24,000 nucleotides of DNA, taken from positions 203,476 through 227,475 of the forward strand of contig JAHEFG010000001.1 of assembly GCA_024640305.1 (NCBI GenBank). Direction: 5' to 3'. This DNA is from Gammaproteobacteria bacterium. GTDB lineage: Bacteria > Pseudomonadota > Gammaproteobacteria > Steroidobacterales > Woeseiaceae. The translations under genes were made by a program, and so were the position numbers. This document shows positions 73 through 5,840 of the stretch, piece after piece (within the stretch, counting starts at the first letter, position 1; each line of letters starts with the position of its first letter). The notes under the pieces were generated by a model. The model was not told where the DNA came from. It saw only the letters and a program-made list of their open reading frames with translations, and made no database searches.

Positions 73-1662
73 ATGCTTCGAATTCGCCTGTCCCTGCTGC
101 TCGTCCTCTTCGTTTTTTGCCTTTCTGCTTGTGACAACCACAATGCAGTGCCCGAGGTTGCAGAATCTCCGGCGACCGAAGACGAGATCGTAACCCTGCT
201 CTTCACCAATGATGTCGAAAGTGCCTACGACCCGATCCCGGCGTTTTGGCTGGACGATATTTCAATGATCGGAGGGATTGCTGAAATAACAACCCTGATC
301 GAGTCTTTGCGCGAATCCGAACCAAACGTATTTCTGTTTGATTCAGGTGATATTTTCACGGGCGCGCTGGCGAAGCTCACGCTGGGTAAACTCGCTTTCG
401 AACTCATGATTACGATGGGCTACGACGCCATGGCTATCGGCAATCACGAATTCGAGTATGGCCACAGGATTTTTGCGTGGGAGAAGAACAGAGCGCCGTT
501 TCCGGTTCTCGGCGCCAACTTCTTCTACAAAGATACTGACCACCCCTACGCCCAGGCGCATGCGATTATCGAGCGCAATGGCCTGCGCATCGGCGTAATC
601 GGAATCATGGGCCAGGACGCCGTCTCCGCCATCATTCCGTCTTACATCGCCCCACTGGATGTCCGCGATCCGGCTGAGGCGGTTCGCAGGTCGGTTGCCG
701 AATTGCGAAACGAGGTGGATCTTATTGTCCTGCTTACACACCAGGGCAAGACTGCACCGATGCAAACCGACGCGGAATCGGACCCCAGACTACAGCGAGA
801 TATCGACGCTGATATCGCACTCGCGGGCGCTGTCGAAGGCATTGACGTCCTCTTCGCGGGACATGCCGATGCGGGAACACCAGAGCCGCTCGTTCACCCC
901 GAAACCGGAACGCTGATAATGCAGACATATGGGCAGGCAACGCATCTCGGCTATCTGCAACTCAGGCTGGACCGCGAGACCGGCGCCATTACAAGTTACG
1001 ACGGCAAACTGATCCCGGTCGAATCCTCGAAACTTGAGCCGGACCCGAGAATACTCGCCAAGTTAGAGCACTATCGGGACGAGAACGGAGAGATCATGGC
1101 GAAAGTGGGCGCAACAGAAGCCGCCATGATTCGCCGCTACATCGAGGAGTCGGATATCGGCAACCTGTTTGCCGATATTTTCGTGGAAGTCAGTGGTGCT
1201 GATATTGGGTTTGTGCATGGCGGCAGCCTGCGCAAGGACTTACCCAAAGGCGAAATTCGTCTCGTGGATATTCTCGACTCTTACCCGTTTGTCGACGATG
1301 TAAATGTGAAAGAAATGACTGGTGCGCAGATTCGACGCGCGCTGGAACAGTCGCTGACATTCGAGCGCGGGATGCTGCAACTATCGGGACTCGAGATGAT
1401 CTATGACCTGGATCAGCCCAGGTACAATCGGATTGTGTCGCTCAAGCGGAATGGTCAGCCGGTTGCTGATAGCGATCGCTTTACCGTAGCCGCGCCAGGG
1501 TTCCTGACCGAAGGTGGCGACCTTTACGACTCCTTTCCCGAATCTGAAGTGATGCAAAGTTTCGGCAAGGTTTCTGACGTCGTCATCGAACACTTTCGCA
1601 ATCGGGAAGTTGTCAGTCTGCCCAAACGCGGCCGGCAGCAAGAAACCGTAAAAAACCAGTAG
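73..1662 (+). CDS. Lipoprotein 5'-nucleotidase / metallophosphoesterase (UshA/CD73 family: calcineurin-like phosphoesterase domain plus 5'-nucleotidase C-terminal domain)
   Basis: ATG at 73. N-terminal signal peptide with a lipobox (LLLVLFVFCLSAC|DNH). Metallophosphatase motifs are present: SGDIFTG, GNHEFEYG, LLTHQG, FAGHAD. A C-terminal substrate-binding domain follows (GFVHGGSLRKDLP, FTVAAPGFLTEGGDLY). Motif I reads TNDVES, with Glu where the usual DxH His sits. Only 11 bp separate it from the next gene. Confidence 0.85.
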   Translation: MLRIRLSLLLVLFVFCLSACDNHNAVPEVAESPATEDEIVTLLFTNDVESAYDPIPAFWLDDISMIGGIAEITTLIESLRESEPNVFLFDSGDIFTGALAKLTLGKLAFELMITMGYDAMAIGNHEFEYGHRIFAWEKNRAPFPVLGANFFYKDTDHPYAQAHAIIERNGLRIGVIGIMGQDAVSAIIPSYIAPLDVRDPAEAVRRSVAELRNEVDLIVLLTHQGKTAPMQTDAESDPRLQRDIDADIALAGAVEGIDVLFAGHADAGTPEPLVHPETGTLIMQTYGQATHLGYLQLRLDRETGAITSYDGKLIPVESSKLEPDPRILAKLEHYRDENGEIMAKVGATEAAMIRRYIEESDIGNLFADIFVEVSGADIGFVHGGSLRKDLPKGEIRLVDILDSYPFVDDVNVKEMTGAQIRRALEQSLTFERGMLQLSGLEMIYDLDQPRYNRIVSLKRNGQPVADSDRFTVAAPGFLTEGGDLYDSFPESEVMQSFGKVSDVVIEHFRNREVVSLPKRGRQQETVKNQ

Positions 1663-1673
1663 CGAGAATTCTC

Positions 1674-2822
1674 ATGGCGGCGGGCGAACTCGAAATTCAG
1701 GCGGCAGTTGCGCGCAGCAGCGCTGAACCTTTTGTTACCGAGAAACTGTACTTGAAGGCCCCTGCGGCCAACGAAATACGGGTAAAGATCGTAGCTACGA
1801 GCGTGTGTCACACCGACTTAATGACCAAGGGCGAAGCGCTTTGTGAGTTTCCGATTGTTCTTGGCCACGAGGGTGCAGGAGTTGTCGATGCGCTGGGCGA
1901 TGAGGTCACGGAGTTTGATGTCGGGGATCATGTTGTCCTGAGTTACGATTATTGCGGTCGGTGTCGGCAGTGTAAAAATCACAAACCGTCATACTGTGAC
2001 AACCACGGCAGCTTGAATTTCGCCGGCACCCGAGCCAACGGGGACAAAACGCACCGTAGTCCGGATAGTGACGCAGCGGACGTGTTTGGCTCTTTCTTCC
2101 AGCAGTCATCATTCGCAACGTATGCGCTGAGCAATACCAGCAACACGATCAAGGTAGACAAGTCCCTGCCCTTGCCGTTGCTGGCACCGCTGGGCTGCGG
2201 TGTGCAGACCGGTGCTGGCACGGTCCTGAATACACTCCAGGTGCAGCCGGATACCAGTATCGTTGTGTTCGGCTGCGGCTGCGTTGGTCTTTCGGCGATT
2301 ATGGCCGCGAAAGTGGCTGGCGCGAAAAACATCGTGGCGGTGGATGTGAATCCGGCTCGCCTGCAAATGGCTCTCGATCTGGGTGCCAGCCACGCTCTCG
2401 CCCCTGGCGATTTTGCCGAGCCTGGATCAATCGTCGAGCATGTGAAGTCCATTTCGCAAGGCAACGGCTGCCAATACGCAATCGATACTACGGGTGCGCC
2501 CAGCATTCTCCGGCAGGCTTTCGATTGTTGTGGGCCGCTCGGTGTAACGGCGATGATTGCGCCAGGCGTGCCCGGTACGGAAGTCAGTATCGAGATGCTC
2601 GGCTTGCTGCCCGGCAAGTCGCTGCGCGGCGTTATACAAGGCGACTCAGTTTCCAAAACGTTCATACCCAAGCTCATTGAGCTATGGCAGGACGGACGGT
2701 TTCCTTTCGACAGGATGCTTACAAAATTTGCATCGATCGACAGCATTGAAGATGTCGCACAGGCAATGGGTCGCGGCGAGGTTATCAAGCCCGTCGTGAT
2801 TCTGGATCCCGAATTTGACTAA
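1674..2822 (+). CDS. Zn-dependent aryl-alcohol (benzyl-alcohol) dehydrogenase-like, XylB-type medium-chain dehydrogenase
   Basis: ATG at 1674. Motifs CHTDL, GHEGAGVV, the structural-zinc Cys cluster YCGRCRQCKNHKPSYC, FFQQSSFATYAL, PLGCGVQTGAGTV, and the Rossmann motif VVFGCGCVGLSAIMAA. It aligns along its whole length with my recollection of Pseudomonas XylB. Confidence 0.85.
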   Translation: MAAGELEIQAAVARSSAEPFVTEKLYLKAPAANEIRVKIVATSVCHTDLMTKGEALCEFPIVLGHEGAGVVDALGDEVTEFDVGDHVVLSYDYCGRCRQCKNHKPSYCDNHGSLNFAGTRANGDKTHRSPDSDAADVFGSFFQQSSFATYALSNTSNTIKVDKSLPLPLLAPLGCGVQTGAGTVLNTLQVQPDTSIVVFGCGCVGLSAIMAAKVAGAKNIVAVDVNPARLQMALDLGASHALAPGDFAEPGSIVEHVKSISQGNGCQYAIDTTGAPSILRQAFDCCGPLGVTAMIAPGVPGTEVSIEMLGLLPGKSLRGVIQGDSVSKTFIPKLIELWQDGRFPFDRMLTKFASIDSIEDVAQAMGRGEVIKPVVILDPEFD

Positions 2823-2826
2823 CTAC

Positions 2827-4275
2827 ATGAAACTAAATAACAAAGATCTGTTGCTGACCCATGGCTGGATCAACGCAGCGGAGGTTCGCTCGAAGCGACA
2901 ATTCGCTGTCGTGGATCCCGCCACGCGCACAGAAATCGCAATGGTCAGCGACCTTGACGCAACGCACGCTCAGCAAGCAATCGCCGCGGCAACCGCCGCC
3001 TATAGCGACTGGAAAACCGTGCCGTTGCAGGAACGGGTCGATACCGTTCTGCGCTGGGCGGAGCTGATTGAGGAAAATGCCGAAGACCTGGGCGTAATCA
3101 TTTCTGCGGAGAGTGGTAAGCCGCTGCGCGAGGCAAGTGGTGAATCGCTTCAATGCGCTGCGTTGTTACGTTGGTACGCCGACGAAATACAACGGTGGAA
3201 AGAAGACACCAGTCGCGCGCCGATCTCAGGTCAACAGAACTATACGATCAGGCAGCCCATCGGTGTTGTTGCCTGTATTACGCCGTGGAATTTTCCGGCC
3301 GCTGCGGTAATGGTGAAGGCCGGTGCCGCCATCCTTGCTGGCTGCACGACCATAATCAAACCATCCGACCTGACCCCACTTGTCGCCCTGGCATTGGCGC
3401 GCCTGTCTGCTGCCGCAAACCTGCCTGCCGGCGTTTTCAACGTGCTGCCCTGCGAAAACCCGACGCAGATCGGCGACGAGATTTGCAGGAACCCGAATGT
3501 GCGAATGCTTTCTTTTACCGGATCGACCCGCGTGGGCAAGTCCCTTTATAGCGCTTGCGGCGCTACCGTAAAGCGCCTCGCACTGGAATTGGGAGGCAAT
3601 GCGCCGTTCATAATTTTTGATGACGCTGATCTGGACCTGGCGATTGATGGTGCGCTTGGGGCCCGCTTTTATAACAGCGGCCAAATCTGCGTCGGCGCCA
3701 ATCGCTATTTTGTACACAGCAACATCTACGCGACGTTTGCAAGCCGGCTCGCAGAGCGTGTTAACGCGATGAAAGTTGGCAGCGGTTTCGACCCGTCGAG
3801 TGATATTGGCCCGATGATCAACCAGGCCGCGGTAGACCGGTTGACACATGTCATTGAAAGCGCGAGGGAAATGGGTGCCAAAGTACTTGCCGGCGGTGGT
3901 CAGGATGATGCGGCGACACTGTATTTCCAACCCACCGTATTGAGCGACATGACTCCCGACATGCCGGCTTATACGATCGAGATCTTTGGTCCTGTAGCCT
4001 GCCTTTACAAATTCGAAAGCGAAGATCAGGTCGTGACGCTTGCCAATGACACTGAGGCCGGCCTGGCCGCGTACGTCTACTCGCGCGATGCCAGCCGCCT
4101 CGCAAGAGTTAGCGAGGCGTTGGAGGCTGGTGTTGTCGGCGCGAACTCATGCGCAATCTTTTCCAACGACTTGCCGTTCGGCGGCATAAAGCAATCCGGC
4201 CTCGGCCGCGAGCATGGCTCCCAGGGGCTTGAGGAATACATCGAAACGAAAAGTATCTGCAAGGTGTCGCAATGA
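2827..4275 (+). CDS. NAD(P)+-dependent aldehyde dehydrogenase, succinate-semialdehyde dehydrogenase (GabD)-like
   Basis: The ORF track opens at TTG 2815, but ATG 2827 gives MKLNNKDLL..., matching the MKLN start of E. coli GabD. Motifs ITPWNFPAA, the catalytic Glu in LELGGNAPFIIFDDADLD, the catalytic Cys in NSGQICVGANR, and FGGIKQSGLGREHG. Its stop overlaps the next start (ATGA at 4272-4275). Confidence 0.85.
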   Translation: MKLNNKDLLLTHGWINAAEVRSKRQFAVVDPATRTEIAMVSDLDATHAQQAIAAATAAYSDWKTVPLQERVDTVLRWAELIEENAEDLGVIISAESGKPLREASGESLQCAALLRWYADEIQRWKEDTSRAPISGQQNYTIRQPIGVVACITPWNFPAAAVMVKAGAAILAGCTTIIKPSDLTPLVALALARLSAAANLPAGVFNVLPCENPTQIGDEICRNPNVRMLSFTGSTRVGKSLYSACGATVKRLALELGGNAPFIIFDDADLDLAIDGALGARFYNSGQICVGANRYFVHSNIYATFASRLAERVNAMKVGSGFDPSSDIGPMINQAAVDRLTHVIESAREMGAKVLAGGGQDDAATLYFQPTVLSDMTPDMPAYTIEIFGPVACLYKFESEDQVVTLANDTEAGLAAYVYSRDASRLARVSEALEAGVVGANSCAIFSNDLPFGGIKQSGLGREHGSQGLEEYIETKSICKVSQ

Positions 4276-4844
4276 CGATGGAACAGCAAAGCTGTCGCTC
4301 AGCCTGGATGCACATGAGTGCGGCCAGCAAGGGGCAACAAGTACGCAATTTCGTCCAGCTATTGGATATGAGCGACTACCTGGTCGAGACAGAGCTCTTT
4401 CCCAGGGAGGTGCTGGAGGCGTACAGCGCATTCAATATGGAAAAGGAAATTACCGCCGAGCATGCGCAGTATGTGAACGAGCAGCGGGGCGGCTCACAGG
4501 GCGATTATCGCGAAGGCATGGCGCGCAAGGTTGCAAACGTGGTGGATTGCCTGGTCCGCTATCCGCAATCAAAACGCGCGGTGATTACTGTTTGTAACGA
4601 GCCTATGCCTGACCACAGCGATGATACAAATGCCAAGTGCCTCCGCGAACTGCACCTCTACCTGGACGAGGAGAACAAGCTAAGCGGTACTGTGTTCTTC
4701 CGGGCTCAGGCAGCTTTTCTGTTTCCGAAAAATATTCACCTGGTCGGTTCGATAATGTCGGAGATAGCCCGACAGCTACCGCAACAACCGGCTTTGGGGA
4801 GCCTGTTCTACCTGGCAACGGTACTGGTGGCGGATCGAAGCTAG
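4272..4844 (+). CDS. Truncated thymidylate synthase / dCMP-hydroxymethylase-fold protein, function unknown
   Basis: By eye, residues 97-170 align to the ThyA catalytic core. YPQSKRAVITVCNE matches DPDSRRIIVSAWN. AKCLRELHLYLDEENKLSGTVFFRAQAAFL-FPKNIHLVGSIM matches [40 protein letters not shown]. The nucleophile Cys (C123, nt 4638-4640), the YQR Arg and the PFN Asn are retained. The GDTHLY segment, about 55 C-terminal residues and much of the N-terminal folate-binding region are missing (190 aa against about 264). It is translationally coupled to the upstream ALDH. Confidence 0.5.
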   Translation: MTMEQQSCRSAWMHMSAASKGQQVRNFVQLLDMSDYLVETELFPREVLEAYSAFNMEKEITAEHAQYVNEQRGGSQGDYREGMARKVANVVDCLVRYPQSKRAVITVCNEPMPDHSDDTNAKCLRELHLYLDEENKLSGTVFFRAQAAFLFPKNIHLVGSIMSEIARQLPQQPALGSLFYLATVLVADRS

Positions 4845-4860
4845 GCTGTACGAGCCACCG

Positions 4861-5790
4861 TCAAACTCTCTCCTCGACACCATTCAGGTCGCACATAGCG
4901 CCTAATGCGATACTGATGGCGCTCTCTATGCTGGCCGTGTAATCGAGAATTGCTGTGCTGGCTGTCGGTTTGCTGATGATGGGACATATGGTGCCAACCA
5001 GGCAGCCTAAATGGCCGGCAACATGAAACAGTAAGCTTGACTCCATTTCCATATTGACGACTCTTTGTTCCTGTACCCGCAGAGCAGAGAGCTGTGTCTT
5101 GATGGACGGGATTGTATTCGCAAGCCCCTCTATGTATCGACTGGACGGCCCGTAGAAACCCGGTGTCGCTGCAGTGATCCCGGTAACGTAATCGACATTC
5201 AGAAATTTCGCGCGTTCAACCAGTGCGGCCGCTACGCCCGGCGAGGCCTTGGAGGCATAAGGGATTATTTTGCTTCTAAACCTGGAGCCCTCCGCCGTTG
5301 AGTTCACAAGTATCTCAAATGCTTGCTGCTCAATTTCAGTGACGACCTGGTCCGCTGGCGGATGGTCGTAGTATAAACCGGCATTATCCAGGCCCAACGC
5401 ATAAGTCGATATCGCCATCGTTCCGGGTTCGATATTTTCCTGGGTTCCTGCGGAGGTTCCGATGCGGATAAATTTCAGCGGCGCTGTTCCCGACTGATAC
5501 TCGCTACTGTCAAGATCGAAGGCATGCACCGCGTATGCCTCCACCAGCGCGATTTCGACGTTATCGACTCCGATGCCGGTGCCAATAACAGAAACCGGCA
5601 CGCCCTTGTAACTACCTGTAAAAGTGACGTATTCGCGGTGTCTTACTTCGGCACTCACAGTATCGAAGCGCTTCGCCACCCGCACCGCCCGAGCCGGGTC
5701 GCCCACCAGGAAAACATTTGCAGCCAGCTGCCCCCTGGTCAGACCAAGATGCAAAACCTTGCCGTCAATGACTACGATCTCTGATTTCAT
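4861..5790 (-). CDS. Nucleoside phosphorylase, uridine phosphorylase (Udp)-like (PNP_UDP_1 family), long variant
   Basis: ATG at 5790. LHLGLTRGQLAANVFLVGDPARAVRVAKRFD, HREYVTFTGSYKGVPVSVIGTGIG, FIRIGTSAGTQ and NMEMESSLL correspond to E. coli Udp FHLGLTKNDL..VPGDPDRV, HREFTTW..GKPVIVCSTGIG, FLRIGTTGAIQ and NYEMESATL. At 309 aa against about 253, it carries two insertions. It is convergent with the TS-fold gene, 16 bp apart. Confidence 0.8.
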   Translation of the reverse strand: MKSEIVVIDGKVLHLGLTRGQLAANVFLVGDPARAVRVAKRFDTVSAEVRHREYVTFTGSYKGVPVSVIGTGIGVDNVEIALVEAYAVHAFDLDSSEYQSGTAPLKFIRIGTSAGTQENIEPGTMAISTYALGLDNAGLYYDHPPADQVVTEIEQQAFEILVNSTAEGSRFRSKIIPYASKASPGVAAALVERAKFLNVDYVTGITAATPGFYGPSSRYIEGLANTIPSIKTQLSALRVQEQRVVNMEMESSLLFHVAGHLGCLVGTICPIISKPTASTAILDYTASIESAISIALGAMCDLNGVEERV

Positions 5791-5840
5791 ACTAAAAATA
5801 CCCGGCCAGTAAGAAATATGTTAATGAAGATTATTACACT
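5791..5840. promoter_or_regulatory. Short AT-rich divergent intergenic region between the Udp-like gene and the kinase-Qng1 fusion gene
   Basis: Only 50 bp separate the two divergent start codons, and this is the most AT-rich stretch in the island (ACTAAAAATACCCGGCCAGTAAGAAATATGTTAATGAAGATTATTACACT). It must hold, or overlap, both promoters. No confident -35/-10 assignment was possible. Confidence 0.35.

What the first reader, a model, noticed from the sequence alone, without database searches (positions are those of the whole stretch)
73..4844. Operon linking a surface 5'-nucleotidase, a benzylic-alcohol dehydrogenase, an aldehyde dehydrogenase and the TS-fold protein: possible oxidative processing of a C5-hydroxymethyl pyrimidine
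Seen in the sequence: four co-oriented genes separated by an 11-bp gap, a stop/start region of a few nt, and a 4-nt overlap, which implies one transcript.

Inference: the XylB-type enzyme oxidises benzylic or heteroaryl-methanol groups, and an ALDH would take the resulting aldehyde to the acid. Applied to a pyrimidine, this is the chemical sequence 5-hydroxymethyluracil to 5-formyluracil to 5-carboxyuracil. That sequence is known from the fungal thymidine-salvage pathway, where one dioxygenase performs the oxidations and an amidohydrolase-superfamily decarboxylase (IDCase) finishes the route. Here dehydrogenases would replace the dioxygenase.

5-hydroxymethyluracil is abundant in dinoflagellate DNA and some phage DNA, so it is a plausible marine substrate. 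The 5'-nucleotidase would liberate the nucleoside outside the cell. This is a hypothesis, not a demonstrated function. The ADH/ALDH pair could equally act on the side chain of another base or on an unrelated aromatic alcohol.
Basis: inference. Interest (0 to 1): 0.6.

Follow-up and report, generated by a model that had tools for sequence, protein, structure and literature searches.

The report
Pyrimidine side-chain oxidation operon, orphan TS-fold enzyme
Three of the four genes (an alcohol dehydrogenase, an unusual aldehyde dehydrogenase and a small unclassified protein with the thymidylate-synthase fold) are always inherited together and sit among nucleoside genes, so they probably form an undescribed bacterial route that oxidises and then removes the C5 side chain of thymine-type nucleosides.

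Summary
Four co-oriented genes lie at 73-4844, with junctions of an 11-bp gap, 4 nt (or an 8-nt overlap) and an ATGA overlap.

The conserved unit is three genes, not four. In 151 genomes of the same family, orthologues of the Zn-ADH, the ALDH and the 190-aa TS-fold protein (TSL) occur in the same 7 genomes and are always contiguous. The 5'-nucleotidase occurs in 38 genomes, many without TSL.

Across 40 assessable loci from four phyla, 30 carry ALDH directly upstream of TSL. All 30 have, upstream of the ALDH, either this Zn-ADH or a new 2OG-Fe(II) oxygenase. Some also carry a thymine-7-hydroxylase-like oxygenase, a nucleoside transporter or a cytidine deaminase.

The ALDH is not a succinate-semialdehyde dehydrogenase: all three substrate-binding residues are replaced (V/Y/F). 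TSL has a confident TS fold and keeps the catalytic Cys, the phosphate-binding Arg and the uracil-reading Asn. It lacks the folate-binding elements.

Best reading (about 0.5): 5-hydroxymethyl to 5-formyl to 5-carboxy-uracil nucleos(t)ide, followed by Cys-mediated decarboxylation by TSL. This would be a bacterial analogue of fungal thymidine salvage. No substrate was tested. The same scan had already noted this TS-fold gene on this window and a look-alike in another genome.

The parts
73..1662 (+). Exported lipoprotein 5'-nucleotidase (UshA/CD73 superfamily). It is a lineage-specific addition to the module, not part of the conserved core.
   Evidence: Metallophos + 5_nucleotid_C. The best solved relative is 3ivd 'Nucleotidase', E 2e-77. 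Lipobox LSAC with Cys20. Orthologues occur in 38 of 151 family genomes, many lacking TSL. It lies next to the module only in Woeseiaceae-type loci, sometimes downstream of TSL (L003, L005).
1674..2822 (+). NAD-type Zn-dependent alcohol dehydrogenase of the benzyl-alcohol-dehydrogenase (XylB-like) branch. Proposed step: 5-hydroxymethyl to 5-formyl.
   Evidence: ADH_N + ADH_zinc_N. Best solved relatives are 1f8f benzyl alcohol dehydrogenase (E 2.3e-96) and 5tnx. Catalytic and structural Zn ligands and the GxGxxG motif are visible in the translation. Orthologues (66-75% identity) occur in exactly the 7 of 151 family genomes that have TSL, always contiguous. It is present upstream of the ALDH in 20 of 30 ALDH-TSL loci.
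2827..4275 (+). Aldehyde dehydrogenase of a distinct subfamily that branches from the SSADH group. Proposed step: 5-formyl to 5-carboxy. An alternative TTG start lies at 2815.
   Evidence: Aldedh, E 1.5e-159. It scores 536.7 bits on TIGR01780, below the 646 cut-off, while the genome has a true SSADH on contig 9 at 717 bits. The SSA-binding positions R213/R334/S498 read V/Y/F (C in Archangium) in all 32 TSL-linked orthologues, against R/R/S in the genome's own SSADH and in five solved SSADHs. Orthologues (62-66% identity) occur only in the 7 TSL-positive genomes of 151, and all others are at most 47% identical.
4272..4844 (+). TSL: a 190-aa protein of an unclassified family with the thymidylate-synthase fold. 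Proposed role: Cys-dependent remover (decarboxylase) of the oxidised C5 substituent of a uracil nucleotide.
   Evidence: No Pfam, NCBIfam or PDB sequence hit. AF2 model with pLDDT 87.1 and pTM 0.87. Foldseek probability 1.00 to MilA, phage dCMP hydroxylase 9iqu, ThyA and T4 dCMP hydroxymethylase, and to phage TS homologues. Alignment to the genome's own ThyA gives K101-R102 = R126-R127, C123 = C146, R144 = R166, A147 = D169 and N154 = N177. All of these are invariant in 30 homologues. The family is small: 151 clusters at 50% identity among 1.84 billion representatives.
4861..5790 (-). Uridine-phosphorylase-like PNP_UDP_1 gene, convergent on TSL. It is an associated context gene and probably handles the nucleoside substrate or product.
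   Evidence: PNP_UDP_1, E 1.6e-26, with uridine phosphorylase as the best but sub-threshold NCBIfam hit. It is present after TSL (or after TSL plus the T7H-like gene) in 9 Woeseiaceae-type loci. In Anaerolineae loci L039 and L042, TSL sits among three PNP_UDP_1 paralogues.

Best explanation
ADH (1674-2822), ALDH (2827-4275) and the TS-fold protein TSL (4272-4844) form one conserved, laterally mobile catabolic or salvage module for a uracil-type pyrimidine nucleoside or nucleotide that carries a C5 hydroxymethyl (or methyl) group. Proposed steps, all inferred. (1) The benzyl-alcohol-type Zn-ADH oxidises the 5-hydroxymethyl group to 5-formyl. In other lineages a 2OG-Fe(II) oxygenase does this, starting from the methyl or hydroxymethyl group. 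(2) The specialised ALDH oxidises 5-formyl to 5-carboxy. (3) TSL adds its conserved Cys123 to C6 of the pyrimidine, as all TS-fold enzymes do. This turns the 5-carboxylate into a beta-keto-acid-like species that loses CO2 and gives the plain uracil nucleotide. The net result is the fungal thymidine-salvage chemistry (T/5hmU to 5fU to 5caU to U) carried out by non-homologous enzymes. In this genome the lipoprotein 5'-nucleotidase (73-1662) and the neighbouring phosphorylase, kinase-glycosylase and transporter genes feed and drain the module. The nucleotidase is an add-on, not part of the core. What is shown: the gene order, the strict co-inheritance, the folds and the residue patterns. What is inferred: the substrate, the order of steps and the decarboxylase activity.
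For: Co-inheritance. In 151 family genomes, TSL, ALDH orthologues and ADH orthologues are found in the same 7 genomes and are contiguous.

Synteny across phyla. Of 40 loci with at least 2.7 kb upstream, 30 have the ALDH directly upstream of TSL. All 30 have either the Zn-ADH (20) or the c9 protein (11; L011 has both) upstream of the ALDH.

c9 is a 2OG-Fe(II) oxygenase. It has an invariant HxD...H plus Arg, an AF2 model at pLDDT 93, and Foldseek probability 1.0 to prolyl-hydroxylase-type DSBH enzymes. Two different enzyme types that can both make an aldehyde therefore precede the same ALDH-TSL pair.

A second oxygenase, c6, follows TSL directly in five Woeseiaceae loci. It matches N. crassa thymine dioxygenase 5c3p at E 2e-39 and keeps F292, Y217, R190 and N294 (residue roles from PMC4787775).

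Nucleoside context. A CNT transporter lies directly after TSL in L033 and L034. Cytidine deaminase occurs in L011 and L034. PNP_UDP_1 genes lie next to TSL in this window and in Chloroflexi. A uracil/xanthine permease, DeoB and the PfkB-Qng1 gene are nearby.

The ALDH is not an SSADH. The positions R213/R334/S498 read V/Y/F in all 32 orthologues, which gives a hydrophobic and aromatic pocket. A true SSADH exists elsewhere in the genome.

TSL. It has a confident TS fold, with invariant Cys, phosphate-site Arg/Lys and the Asn that selects uracil over cytosine in ThyA (role of N177 from PMC13326640). The folate-side Asp169 is Ala and the C-terminal ~55 residues of ThyA are absent, so a one-carbon transfer is unlikely. 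The genome has a normal ThyA.

The ADH's nearest solved relative is a benzyl alcohol dehydrogenase, an enzyme for aryl-CH2OH groups.
Against: No substrate or activity was tested, and no paper in the held library links these families. This genome (78% complete) lacks c6 and c9; only a PhyH-family oxygenase lies upstream. Fifteen loci (10 of the 40 assessable ones; Chloroflexi and some Acidimicrobiales) carry TSL without the ALDH, so TSL's reaction does not always need the dehydrogenases. TS-fold enzymes act on 5'-monophosphates, while the surrounding transporters and phosphorylases act on nucleosides. At which level each step works is therefore open. The ThyA alignment is weak at sequence level (hhalign probability 4%), and the residue equivalences rest on it plus the fold match. 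Model coordinates could not be inspected. A TS-fold decarboxylase has no precedent.
Confidence: 0.5

Rival explanations
1. The oxidation is at the sugar 5' carbon, not at C5 of the base. The ADH (or the 2OG oxygenase) makes a nucleoside 5'-aldehyde and the ALDH makes the nucleoside 5'-carboxylate. TSL then binds this phosphate mimic in its Arg-rich site and modifies or opens the pyrimidine.
For: The gene order nucleotidase-ADH-ALDH fits three successive reactions at the 5' position. ADH and oxygenase could both yield the same 5'-aldehyde. From my own knowledge, 2OG:UMP dioxygenases (LipL/Cpr19) make uridine-5'-aldehyde. The conserved Arg/Lys of TSL could bind a carboxylate. The nucleoside transporter next to the module has no kinase beside it in Cellvibrionaceae.
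Against: The nucleotidase is not co-inherited with the module. The ADH is of the aryl-methanol (benzyl alcohol) branch. The ALDH pocket changes are toward hydrophobic and aromatic residues, not what a ribose-borne aldehyde suggests. c9 resembles prolyl-hydroxylase-type enzymes, not TauD/LipL-type ones, among the top 50 fold matches. The T7H-like c6 keeps the base-stacking residues. This reading gives TSL no clear reaction.
Confidence: 0.12
2. TSL acts first or independently. It might be a cofactor-dependent C5 hydroxylase, or a C5 dealkylase or dehalogenase of a modified uracil nucleotide. The ALDH (with the ADH or oxygenase) would then process the released or remaining aldehyde fragment.
For: Short TS-fold enzymes with a non-folate cofactor exist: phage dCMP 5-hydroxylase, PDB 9iqu/9iqc, is among the best fold matches (PMC13326640). 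TSL occurs without the ALDH in 15 loci, 10 of the 40 assessable ones. A luciferase-like monooxygenase lies next to TSL in L035.
Against: The D169N signature reported for 5-hydroxy-dCMP synthases is not met, because TSL has Ala there. The base-reading residue is Asn (uracil), not Asp. No flavin reductase recurs beside TSL. The ATGA coupling and the fixed order (aldehyde-maker, ALDH, TSL) in 30 loci fit a linear path that ends at TSL.
Confidence: 0.12
3. The module acts on another heteroaryl- or aryl-methanol, such as the thiamine pyrimidine HMP, a bacimethrin-like compound or a plain aromatic alcohol. The nucleoside neighbourhood would then be coincidental.
For: The ADH's closest solved relative is a benzyl alcohol dehydrogenase. 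The ALDH pocket is hydrophobic and aromatic. Among Acidimicrobiales loci, tblastn with the ten context queries found none of the nucleoside genes tested beside the trio.
Against: TSL keeps nucleotide-binding features of ThyA. Nucleoside transporters, a deaminase and phosphorylases recur beside the module in three separate lineages. No ring-cleavage or aromatic-pathway genes were seen in the loci examined.
Confidence: 0.1
4. The ALDH is an ordinary succinate-semialdehyde dehydrogenase, and the four genes are merely adjacent housekeeping genes.
For: The best NCBIfam and PDB matches are SSADHs.
Against: The score is below the family cut-off, and a true SSADH lies elsewhere in the genome. All three SSA-binding residues are replaced in every orthologue. 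Orthologues exist only where TSL exists.
Confidence: 0.02

Closest known systems
Fungal thymidine salvage pathway: thymine-7-hydroxylase (T7H, 2OG dioxygenase, PDB 5c3p) plus iso-orotate decarboxylase (IDCase, amidohydrolase superfamily)
   Same: The proposed net chemistry is the same: T/5hmU to 5fU to 5caU to U (PMC4787775). A T7H-like oxygenase (E 2e-39, stacking residues kept) sits beside the module in several relatives.
   Different: Here NAD-dependent dehydrogenases would do the second and third oxidations. A TS-fold protein, not an amidohydrolase-type metal enzyme, would remove the carboxyl group. The substrate is probably a nucleoside or nucleotide rather than the free base. No T7H-like gene was found in this genome. 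The single Amidohydro_2 gene is on another contig.
Thymidylate synthase superfamily: ThyA, T4 dCMP hydroxymethylase, MilA CMP hydroxymethylase, phage 5-hydroxy-dCMP synthase (9iqu)
   Same: Same fold (Foldseek probability 1.00, TM up to 0.78 on the query). The equivalents of the catalytic Cys, R166, R126/R127 and N177 are kept.
   Different: TSL is only 190 aa and has no PF00303 match. D169 is Ala, and the C-terminal folate-closing segment is absent. It forms a small separate family of 151 clusters. It is cellular rather than phage-borne, and it is coupled to an ALDH, which is not known for any TS-fold enzyme.
XylB/XylC-type benzyl alcohol and benzaldehyde dehydrogenase pair of aromatic catabolism
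   Same: A Zn-ADH of the same branch (1f8f, E 2.3e-96) is followed by an NAD(P) aldehyde dehydrogenase.
   Different: The ALDH derives from the SSADH branch. The pair is tied to a TS-fold protein and to nucleoside genes, not to ring-cleavage genes.
Succinate-semialdehyde dehydrogenase (GabD/ALDH5A1)
   Same: 45-47% identity. The catalytic Cys and Glu are kept.
   Different: The substrate-carboxylate ligands R213, R334 and S498 are replaced by V, Y and F/C. The score is below the TIGR01780 cut-off.

Membership tests
Thymidylate synthase superfamily (fold level) | TS alpha/beta fold | tested here: met
   AF2 model at pLDDT 87.1. Foldseek probability 1.00 to MilA, ThyA, T4 dCH and 9iqu, and to phage TS homologues.
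Thymidylate synthase superfamily (fold level) | Nucleophilic Cys (E. coli C146), with the phosphate-binding Arg and the base-reading Asn/Asp | tested here: met
   C123, R144, K101-R102 and N154 align with C146, R166, R126-R127 and N177 of the genome's own ThyA and are invariant in 30 homologues. The alignment itself is weak (probability 4%).
ThyA / folate-dependent pyrimidine C5 transferases (PF00303) | Match to PF00303, the folate-side residues (D169) and the C-terminal closing segment | tested here: not met
   No Pfam hit even at E 1. D169 is Ala147. The protein ends about 55 residues before the ThyA C-terminus.
Flavin-dependent 5-hydroxy-dCMP synthases (phage RB69/HY126 type) | D169N signature and a cytosine-reading Asp at the N177 position (PMC13326640) | tested here: not met
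   Ala at the D169 position and Asn at the N177 position. Flavin binding is not testable here.
Succinate-semialdehyde dehydrogenase (TIGR01780 / ALDH5) | Score above the curated cut-off, and the SSA-binding residues R213, R334 and S498 | tested here: not met
   536.7 bits against a cut-off of 646.35. V/Y/F at the three positions in all 32 orthologues.
Aldehyde dehydrogenase superfamily (PF00171) | Full-length Aldedh domain with the catalytic Cys and Glu | tested here: met
   E 1.5e-159 over profile positions 6-461. Cys and Glu are present in all rows.
Benzyl-alcohol-dehydrogenase-type Zn-ADH (XylB branch of MDR) | Closest similarity to characterised BADH, with catalytic and structural Zn ligands | tested here: met
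   1f8f at E 2.3e-96, against 2e-64 or weaker for the next solved ADHs, including classes I-III. The Cys/His/Cys and four-Cys motifs are visible. Substrate range is not testable here.
5'-nucleotidase / UshA-CD73 family | Metallophos N-domain plus 5_nucleotid_C domain, and an export signal | tested here: met
   Both domains are present. Best PDB match 3ivd at E 2e-77. Lipobox LSAC. All NCBIfam equivalogs are below their cut-offs.
Fungal-type thymidine salvage (T7H + IDCase) | A T7H orthologue and an IDCase (Amidohydro_2) in the cluster | tested here: not met
   No T7H-like gene in this genome, which is 78% complete. A T7H-like gene occurs only in relatives' loci. The single Amidohydro_2 gene is on contig 13, unlinked.

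The most novel reading that the evidence does not exclude
[quoted passage not shown] Together with a dedicated ALDH and either a Zn-ADH or a new 2OG oxygenase, it would give bacteria an oxidative 'de-methylation' route from thymine or 5-hydroxymethyluracil nucleosides to uracil nucleosides. This route would have been assembled independently of the fungal T7H/IDCase pathway and passed between phyla as a cassette.
Probability: 0.4. Interest if true: 0.85.

Novelty: new variant of a known kind. Interest (0 to 1): 0.7.

Why it matters
Removal of the thymine methyl group (thymidine salvage) is known only from some fungi, and the enzymes proposed here are unrelated to the fungal ones. If confirmed, this module would show how marine and soil bacteria recycle thymidine, ribothymidine or the 5-hydroxymethyluracil that is abundant in dinoflagellate DNA and some phage DNA.

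It would also add a new reaction type to the well-studied thymidylate-synthase fold. And it would provide a natural example of the thiol-addition mechanism long discussed for enzymatic decarboxylation of 5-carboxy-pyrimidines, the chemistry sought in the 5-carboxycytosine 'DNA decarboxylase' question.

It also gives a testable job to three unannotated or misannotated families: TSL, the V/Y/F ALDH subfamily now auto-labelled SSADH, and the c9 oxygenase. Cultured carriers exist (Sessilibacter corallicola, Halioxenophilus spp.), so the idea can be tested at the bench.

Tried and rejected
1. Sequence-level searches for TSL found nothing useful. These were Pfam at E up to 1, NCBIfam and PDB phmmer. 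The TS link came only from the fold.
2. hhalign of the TSL alignment against the genome's ThyA gave probability 4%. I used it only for residue register, supported by the fold match.
3. My simple longest-ORF caller failed in high-GC loci: it lost TSL in 8 loci. I replaced it with tblastn mapping.
4. The SSADH reading of the ALDH was rejected on cut-off, paralogue and residue evidence.
5. The 5-hydroxy-dCMP-synthase reading of TSL was rejected on the D169N and N177 signatures.
6. A LipL/TauD-type identity for c9 was not supported. There were only E ~0.05 Pfam hints, and the fold matches are of the prolyl-hydroxylase type.
7. c6 and c9 were sought in this genome and not found. The genome is 78% complete, so absence is not proven.
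8. Five literature searches for a bacterial 5hmU/5fU/5caU route or a TS-fold decarboxylase returned nothing relevant.
10. Model coordinates are not exposed, so I could not examine active-site geometry or ligand fit.

Full report
**Observation.** The window carries four + strand ORFs at 73-1662, 1674-2822, 2815/2827-4275 and 4272-4844. I read the junctions directly. There is an 11-bp gap between the first two genes. The ALDH starts either at ATG 2827, 4 nt after the ADH stop, or at TTG 2815, overlapping it by 8 nt. The ALDH and the fourth gene share an ATGA overlap. A convergent gene ends 16 bp after the fourth gene. Promoter-like and terminator-like matches inside the block do not exceed shuffled expectation. 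So the description is correct.

**What the four proteins are.**

Gene 1 has Metallophos + 5_nucleotid_C domains. Its best solved relative is 3ivd, E 2e-77. It starts with a lipoprotein signal, LSAC followed by Asp. It is therefore an exported lipoprotein nucleotidase, not necessarily a cell-surface one.

Gene 2 is a Zn-ADH. Its nearest solved relatives are Acinetobacter benzyl alcohol dehydrogenase 1f8f (E 2.3e-96) and 5tnx, well ahead of the next solved ADHs, including classes I-III. All Zn ligands and the dinucleotide motif are present.

Gene 3 is a full-length ALDH that looks most like SSADH. It scores below the TIGR01780 cut-off, and the genome has a genuine SSADH on contig 9 at 717 bits. 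Residue roles come from PMC11681614 and the register from printed alignments to five solved SSADHs. On that basis the three succinate-semialdehyde-binding residues R213, R334 and S498 are V, Y and F here. The same replacement (F or C at the third site) holds in all 32 orthologues found next to the fourth gene. The genome's own SSADH and another paralogue keep R/R/S. This is therefore a distinct ALDH subfamily with a hydrophobic and aromatic substrate pocket.

Gene 4 (TSL, 190 aa) has no Pfam, NCBIfam or PDB sequence match. Its AlphaFold model is confident (pLDDT 87.1, pTM 0.87). Foldseek places it in the thymidylate-synthase fold at probability 1.00. The best matches are MilA CMP hydroxymethylase, the phage dCMP 5-hydroxylase 9iqu, ThyA and T4 dCMP hydroxymethylase, plus phage TS homologues. 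Aligned with the genome's own canonical ThyA, TSL keeps these equivalents:
- C146 as C123
- R166 as R144
- R126-R127 as K101-R102
- N177 as N154, the residue that selects uracil over cytosine

All of these are invariant in 30 homologues. TSL has Ala in place of the folate-side D169 and ends about 55 residues before the ThyA C-terminus. The D169N signature of the flavin-dependent 5-hydroxy-dCMP synthases (PMC13326640) is not present either. The family is small: 151 clusters at 50% identity in a library of 1.84 billion representatives, and none links to ThyA by sequence.

**Co-conservation.** A scan of species-representative genomes returned 45 TSL loci from Gammaproteobacteria (Woeseiaceae, Cellvibrionaceae, Halieaceae), Acidimicrobiales, Archangium (Myxococcota) and Chloroflexi. 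I mapped the window's proteins and recurrent neighbours onto them by tblastn and counted the results. Of 40 loci with at least 2.7 kb upstream, 30 have the ALDH directly upstream of TSL. Every one of these 30 has, directly upstream of the ALDH, either the Zn-ADH (20 loci) or a 270-290-aa protein I call c9 (11 loci; Sessilibacter corallicola has both).

c9 has no Pfam family. It shows an invariant HxD...H plus Arg pattern, folds confidently (pLDDT 93.0) and matches prolyl-hydroxylase-type 2OG-Fe(II) oxygenases at probability 1.00. So two unrelated enzyme types that can each generate an aldehyde alternate in front of the same ALDH-TSL pair.

Within the window's own family I searched 151 genomes:
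- TSL occurs in 7 genomes.
- ALDH orthologues (62-66% identity) occur in the same 7 and lie next to TSL. Every other genome has only hits of 47% or less.
- ADH orthologues (66-75% identity) occur in the same 7 and are contiguous. No other genome has a hit at E 1e-90.
- The nucleotidase has close orthologues in 38 genomes, many without TSL.

In L003 and L005 the nucleotidase lies downstream of TSL, and outside Woeseiaceae it is absent from the locus. The conserved unit is therefore ADH (or c9)-ALDH-TSL, and the nucleotidase is a lineage-specific neighbour.

On a TSL tree, the Acidimicrobiales copies that carry ADH-ALDH group with the gammaproteobacterial ones. They are separate from the Acidimicrobiales copies that stand alone. 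This suggests that the cassette moved between phyla.

**Context points to pyrimidine nucleosides.**
- In five Woeseiaceae loci a DIOX_N/2OG-FeII_Oxy oxygenase (c6) follows TSL directly. Its third-best solved relative is N. crassa thymine dioxygenase (5c3p, E 2e-39). It keeps the T7H residues F292, Y217, R190 and N294, while N87 is replaced (residue roles from PMC4787775).
- In Cellvibrionaceae a CNT concentrative nucleoside transporter follows TSL. It is intact in L034 and cut by a Tn3 transposase in Halioxenophilus aromaticivorans L033. A cytidine deaminase and a c6-like oxygenase lie beside it.
- In this window a uridine-phosphorylase-like gene converges on TSL. A PfkB-Qng1 fusion, a second ALDH, YjjI/YjjW, an amidohydrolase and DeoB follow.
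- Immediately upstream of the window lie an adenosine-deaminase-like gene, a PhyH-family 2OG oxygenase and a HAD hydrolase. This trio recurs in related loci.
- In two Anaerolineae loci, TSL without the ALDH is embedded among three PNP_UDP_1 paralogues.

**Mechanism proposed.** All steps are inferred. A benzyl-alcohol-type ADH fits a heteroaryl-CH2OH group such as that of 5-hydroxymethyluracil. The ALDH, stripped of its carboxylate-binding residues, would take the 5-formyl compound to the 5-carboxylate. TSL retains exactly the TS machinery that activates C5 by thiol addition at C6 and has lost the one-carbon-donor side. It would make the C5 carboxylate beta to an enolisable C4 carbonyl and so promote loss of CO2.

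Where a 2OG oxygenase (c9, c6 or PhyH) is present, the entry substrate could be the methyl compound (thymidine or ribothymidine). In this genome, where c6 and c9 were not found (78% complete), it would be the hydroxymethyl compound. This is the chemistry of the fungal thymidine-salvage route (PMC4787775), built from different proteins. The only Amidohydro_2 gene of this genome is unlinked.

I put this reading at about 0.5. That ADH-ALDH-TSL is one functional unit acting on a pyrimidine nucleoside or nucleotide I consider much more likely, about 0.85.

**Rivals.**
1. Oxidation at the sugar 5' carbon, giving a nucleoside 5'-carboxylate as a phosphate mimic for TSL. This fits the nucleotidase-ADH-ALDH order and the ADH/oxygenase alternation. 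It fits less well with the ADH branch, the ALDH pocket, the T7H-like neighbour and the independent distribution of the nucleotidase. Confidence 0.12.
2. TSL acts first or alone, as a hydroxylase or dealkylase. The solo loci and the 9iqu precedent support this, but the diagnostic residues are not met. Confidence 0.12.
3. A non-nucleoside aryl-methanol substrate. Confidence 0.1.
4. An ordinary SSADH with chance adjacency. Confidence 0.02.

**Literature.** Five full-text searches found no report of a bacterial ADH/ALDH route for 5-hydroxymethyl or 5-formyl uracil, nor of a TS-fold decarboxylase. The high 5hmU content of dinoflagellate DNA is stated in bioRxiv 10.1101/2023.11.30.569493 (abstract seen). 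Several carriers of the module, or of c9, come from coral or other marine hosts (Sessilibacter corallicola; Pseudobacteriovorax antillogorgiicola). This is circumstantial only.

**Earlier notes of this scan.** The scan had already flagged the TS-fold gene and the wider nucleoside island on this window, and a look-alike orphan TS-fold protein in another genome. I re-derived the TS-fold claim independently.

**Verdict.** The C5-oxidation idea gains substantial comparative support and a sharper form: a three-gene core, interchangeable aldehyde-forming enzymes, and TSL as the probable decarboxylase. The nucleotidase is not part of the conserved unit, and no substrate has been demonstrated.

Noticed in passing
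L033:7595-8443 (+) and 10 other loci; alignment A2: c9 is a 270-290-aa protein family with no Pfam model. It is a 2OG-Fe(II) oxygenase by fold and by its HxD...H/R pattern. It is found directly upstream of ALDH-TSL in Cellvibrionaceae, Halieaceae and Archangium. Only about 80 homologous clusters exist in the large protein collection.
   Followed up: yes
L061:6784-9832 (= G000:C40 just upstream of window base 1): An adenosine-deaminase-like gene (481 aa), a PhyH-family 2OG oxygenase (292 aa) and a HAD hydrolase (opposite strand) lie immediately upstream of the nucleotidase. PhyH and HAD recur at this position in related Woeseiaceae loci, sometimes with a P450 and an MFS transporter inserted.
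   Followed up: partly
G000:C40:192257-193738 (about 10 kb upstream of the window): A second 5'-nucleotidase paralogue (61% identity to the window's) lies in a stretch with two sulfatases and a TonB-dependent receptor.
   Followed up: no
L033:10566-13917: In Halioxenophilus aromaticivorans, the CNT nucleoside transporter gene directly downstream of TSL is truncated after its N-terminal domain by a Tn3-family transposase insertion.
   Followed up: partly
L042:1318-4343 and L039:3-2920: In two Anaerolineae MAGs, TSL stands without the ALDH between three PNP_UDP_1 nucleoside-phosphorylase paralogues. An ECF-transporter T component (L042) and an MFS transporter (L039) lie nearby.
   Followed up: partly
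L035:2752-4110 (-): A 452-aa luciferase-like (flavin-dependent) monooxygenase is divergently adjacent to a stand-alone TSL in an Acidimicrobiales MAG. It could hint at a different partner chemistry for the solo clade.
   Followed up: no
window 5787-6209 (-) versus 5841-7640 (+): A 140-aa minus-strand ORF with no family match overlaps the 5' part of the PfkB-Qng1 ORF. One weak tblastn match (33%) appears at the equivalent place in L004. Which of the two frames is real at 5841-6209 was not resolved here.
   Followed up: no
window 7691-9196 (+): On my MAFFT alignment, the second ALDH of the island shows Thr instead of Cys at the catalytic Cys column. The alignment in that region is gapped, so this needs checking before it is read as an inactive enzyme.
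   Followed up: no
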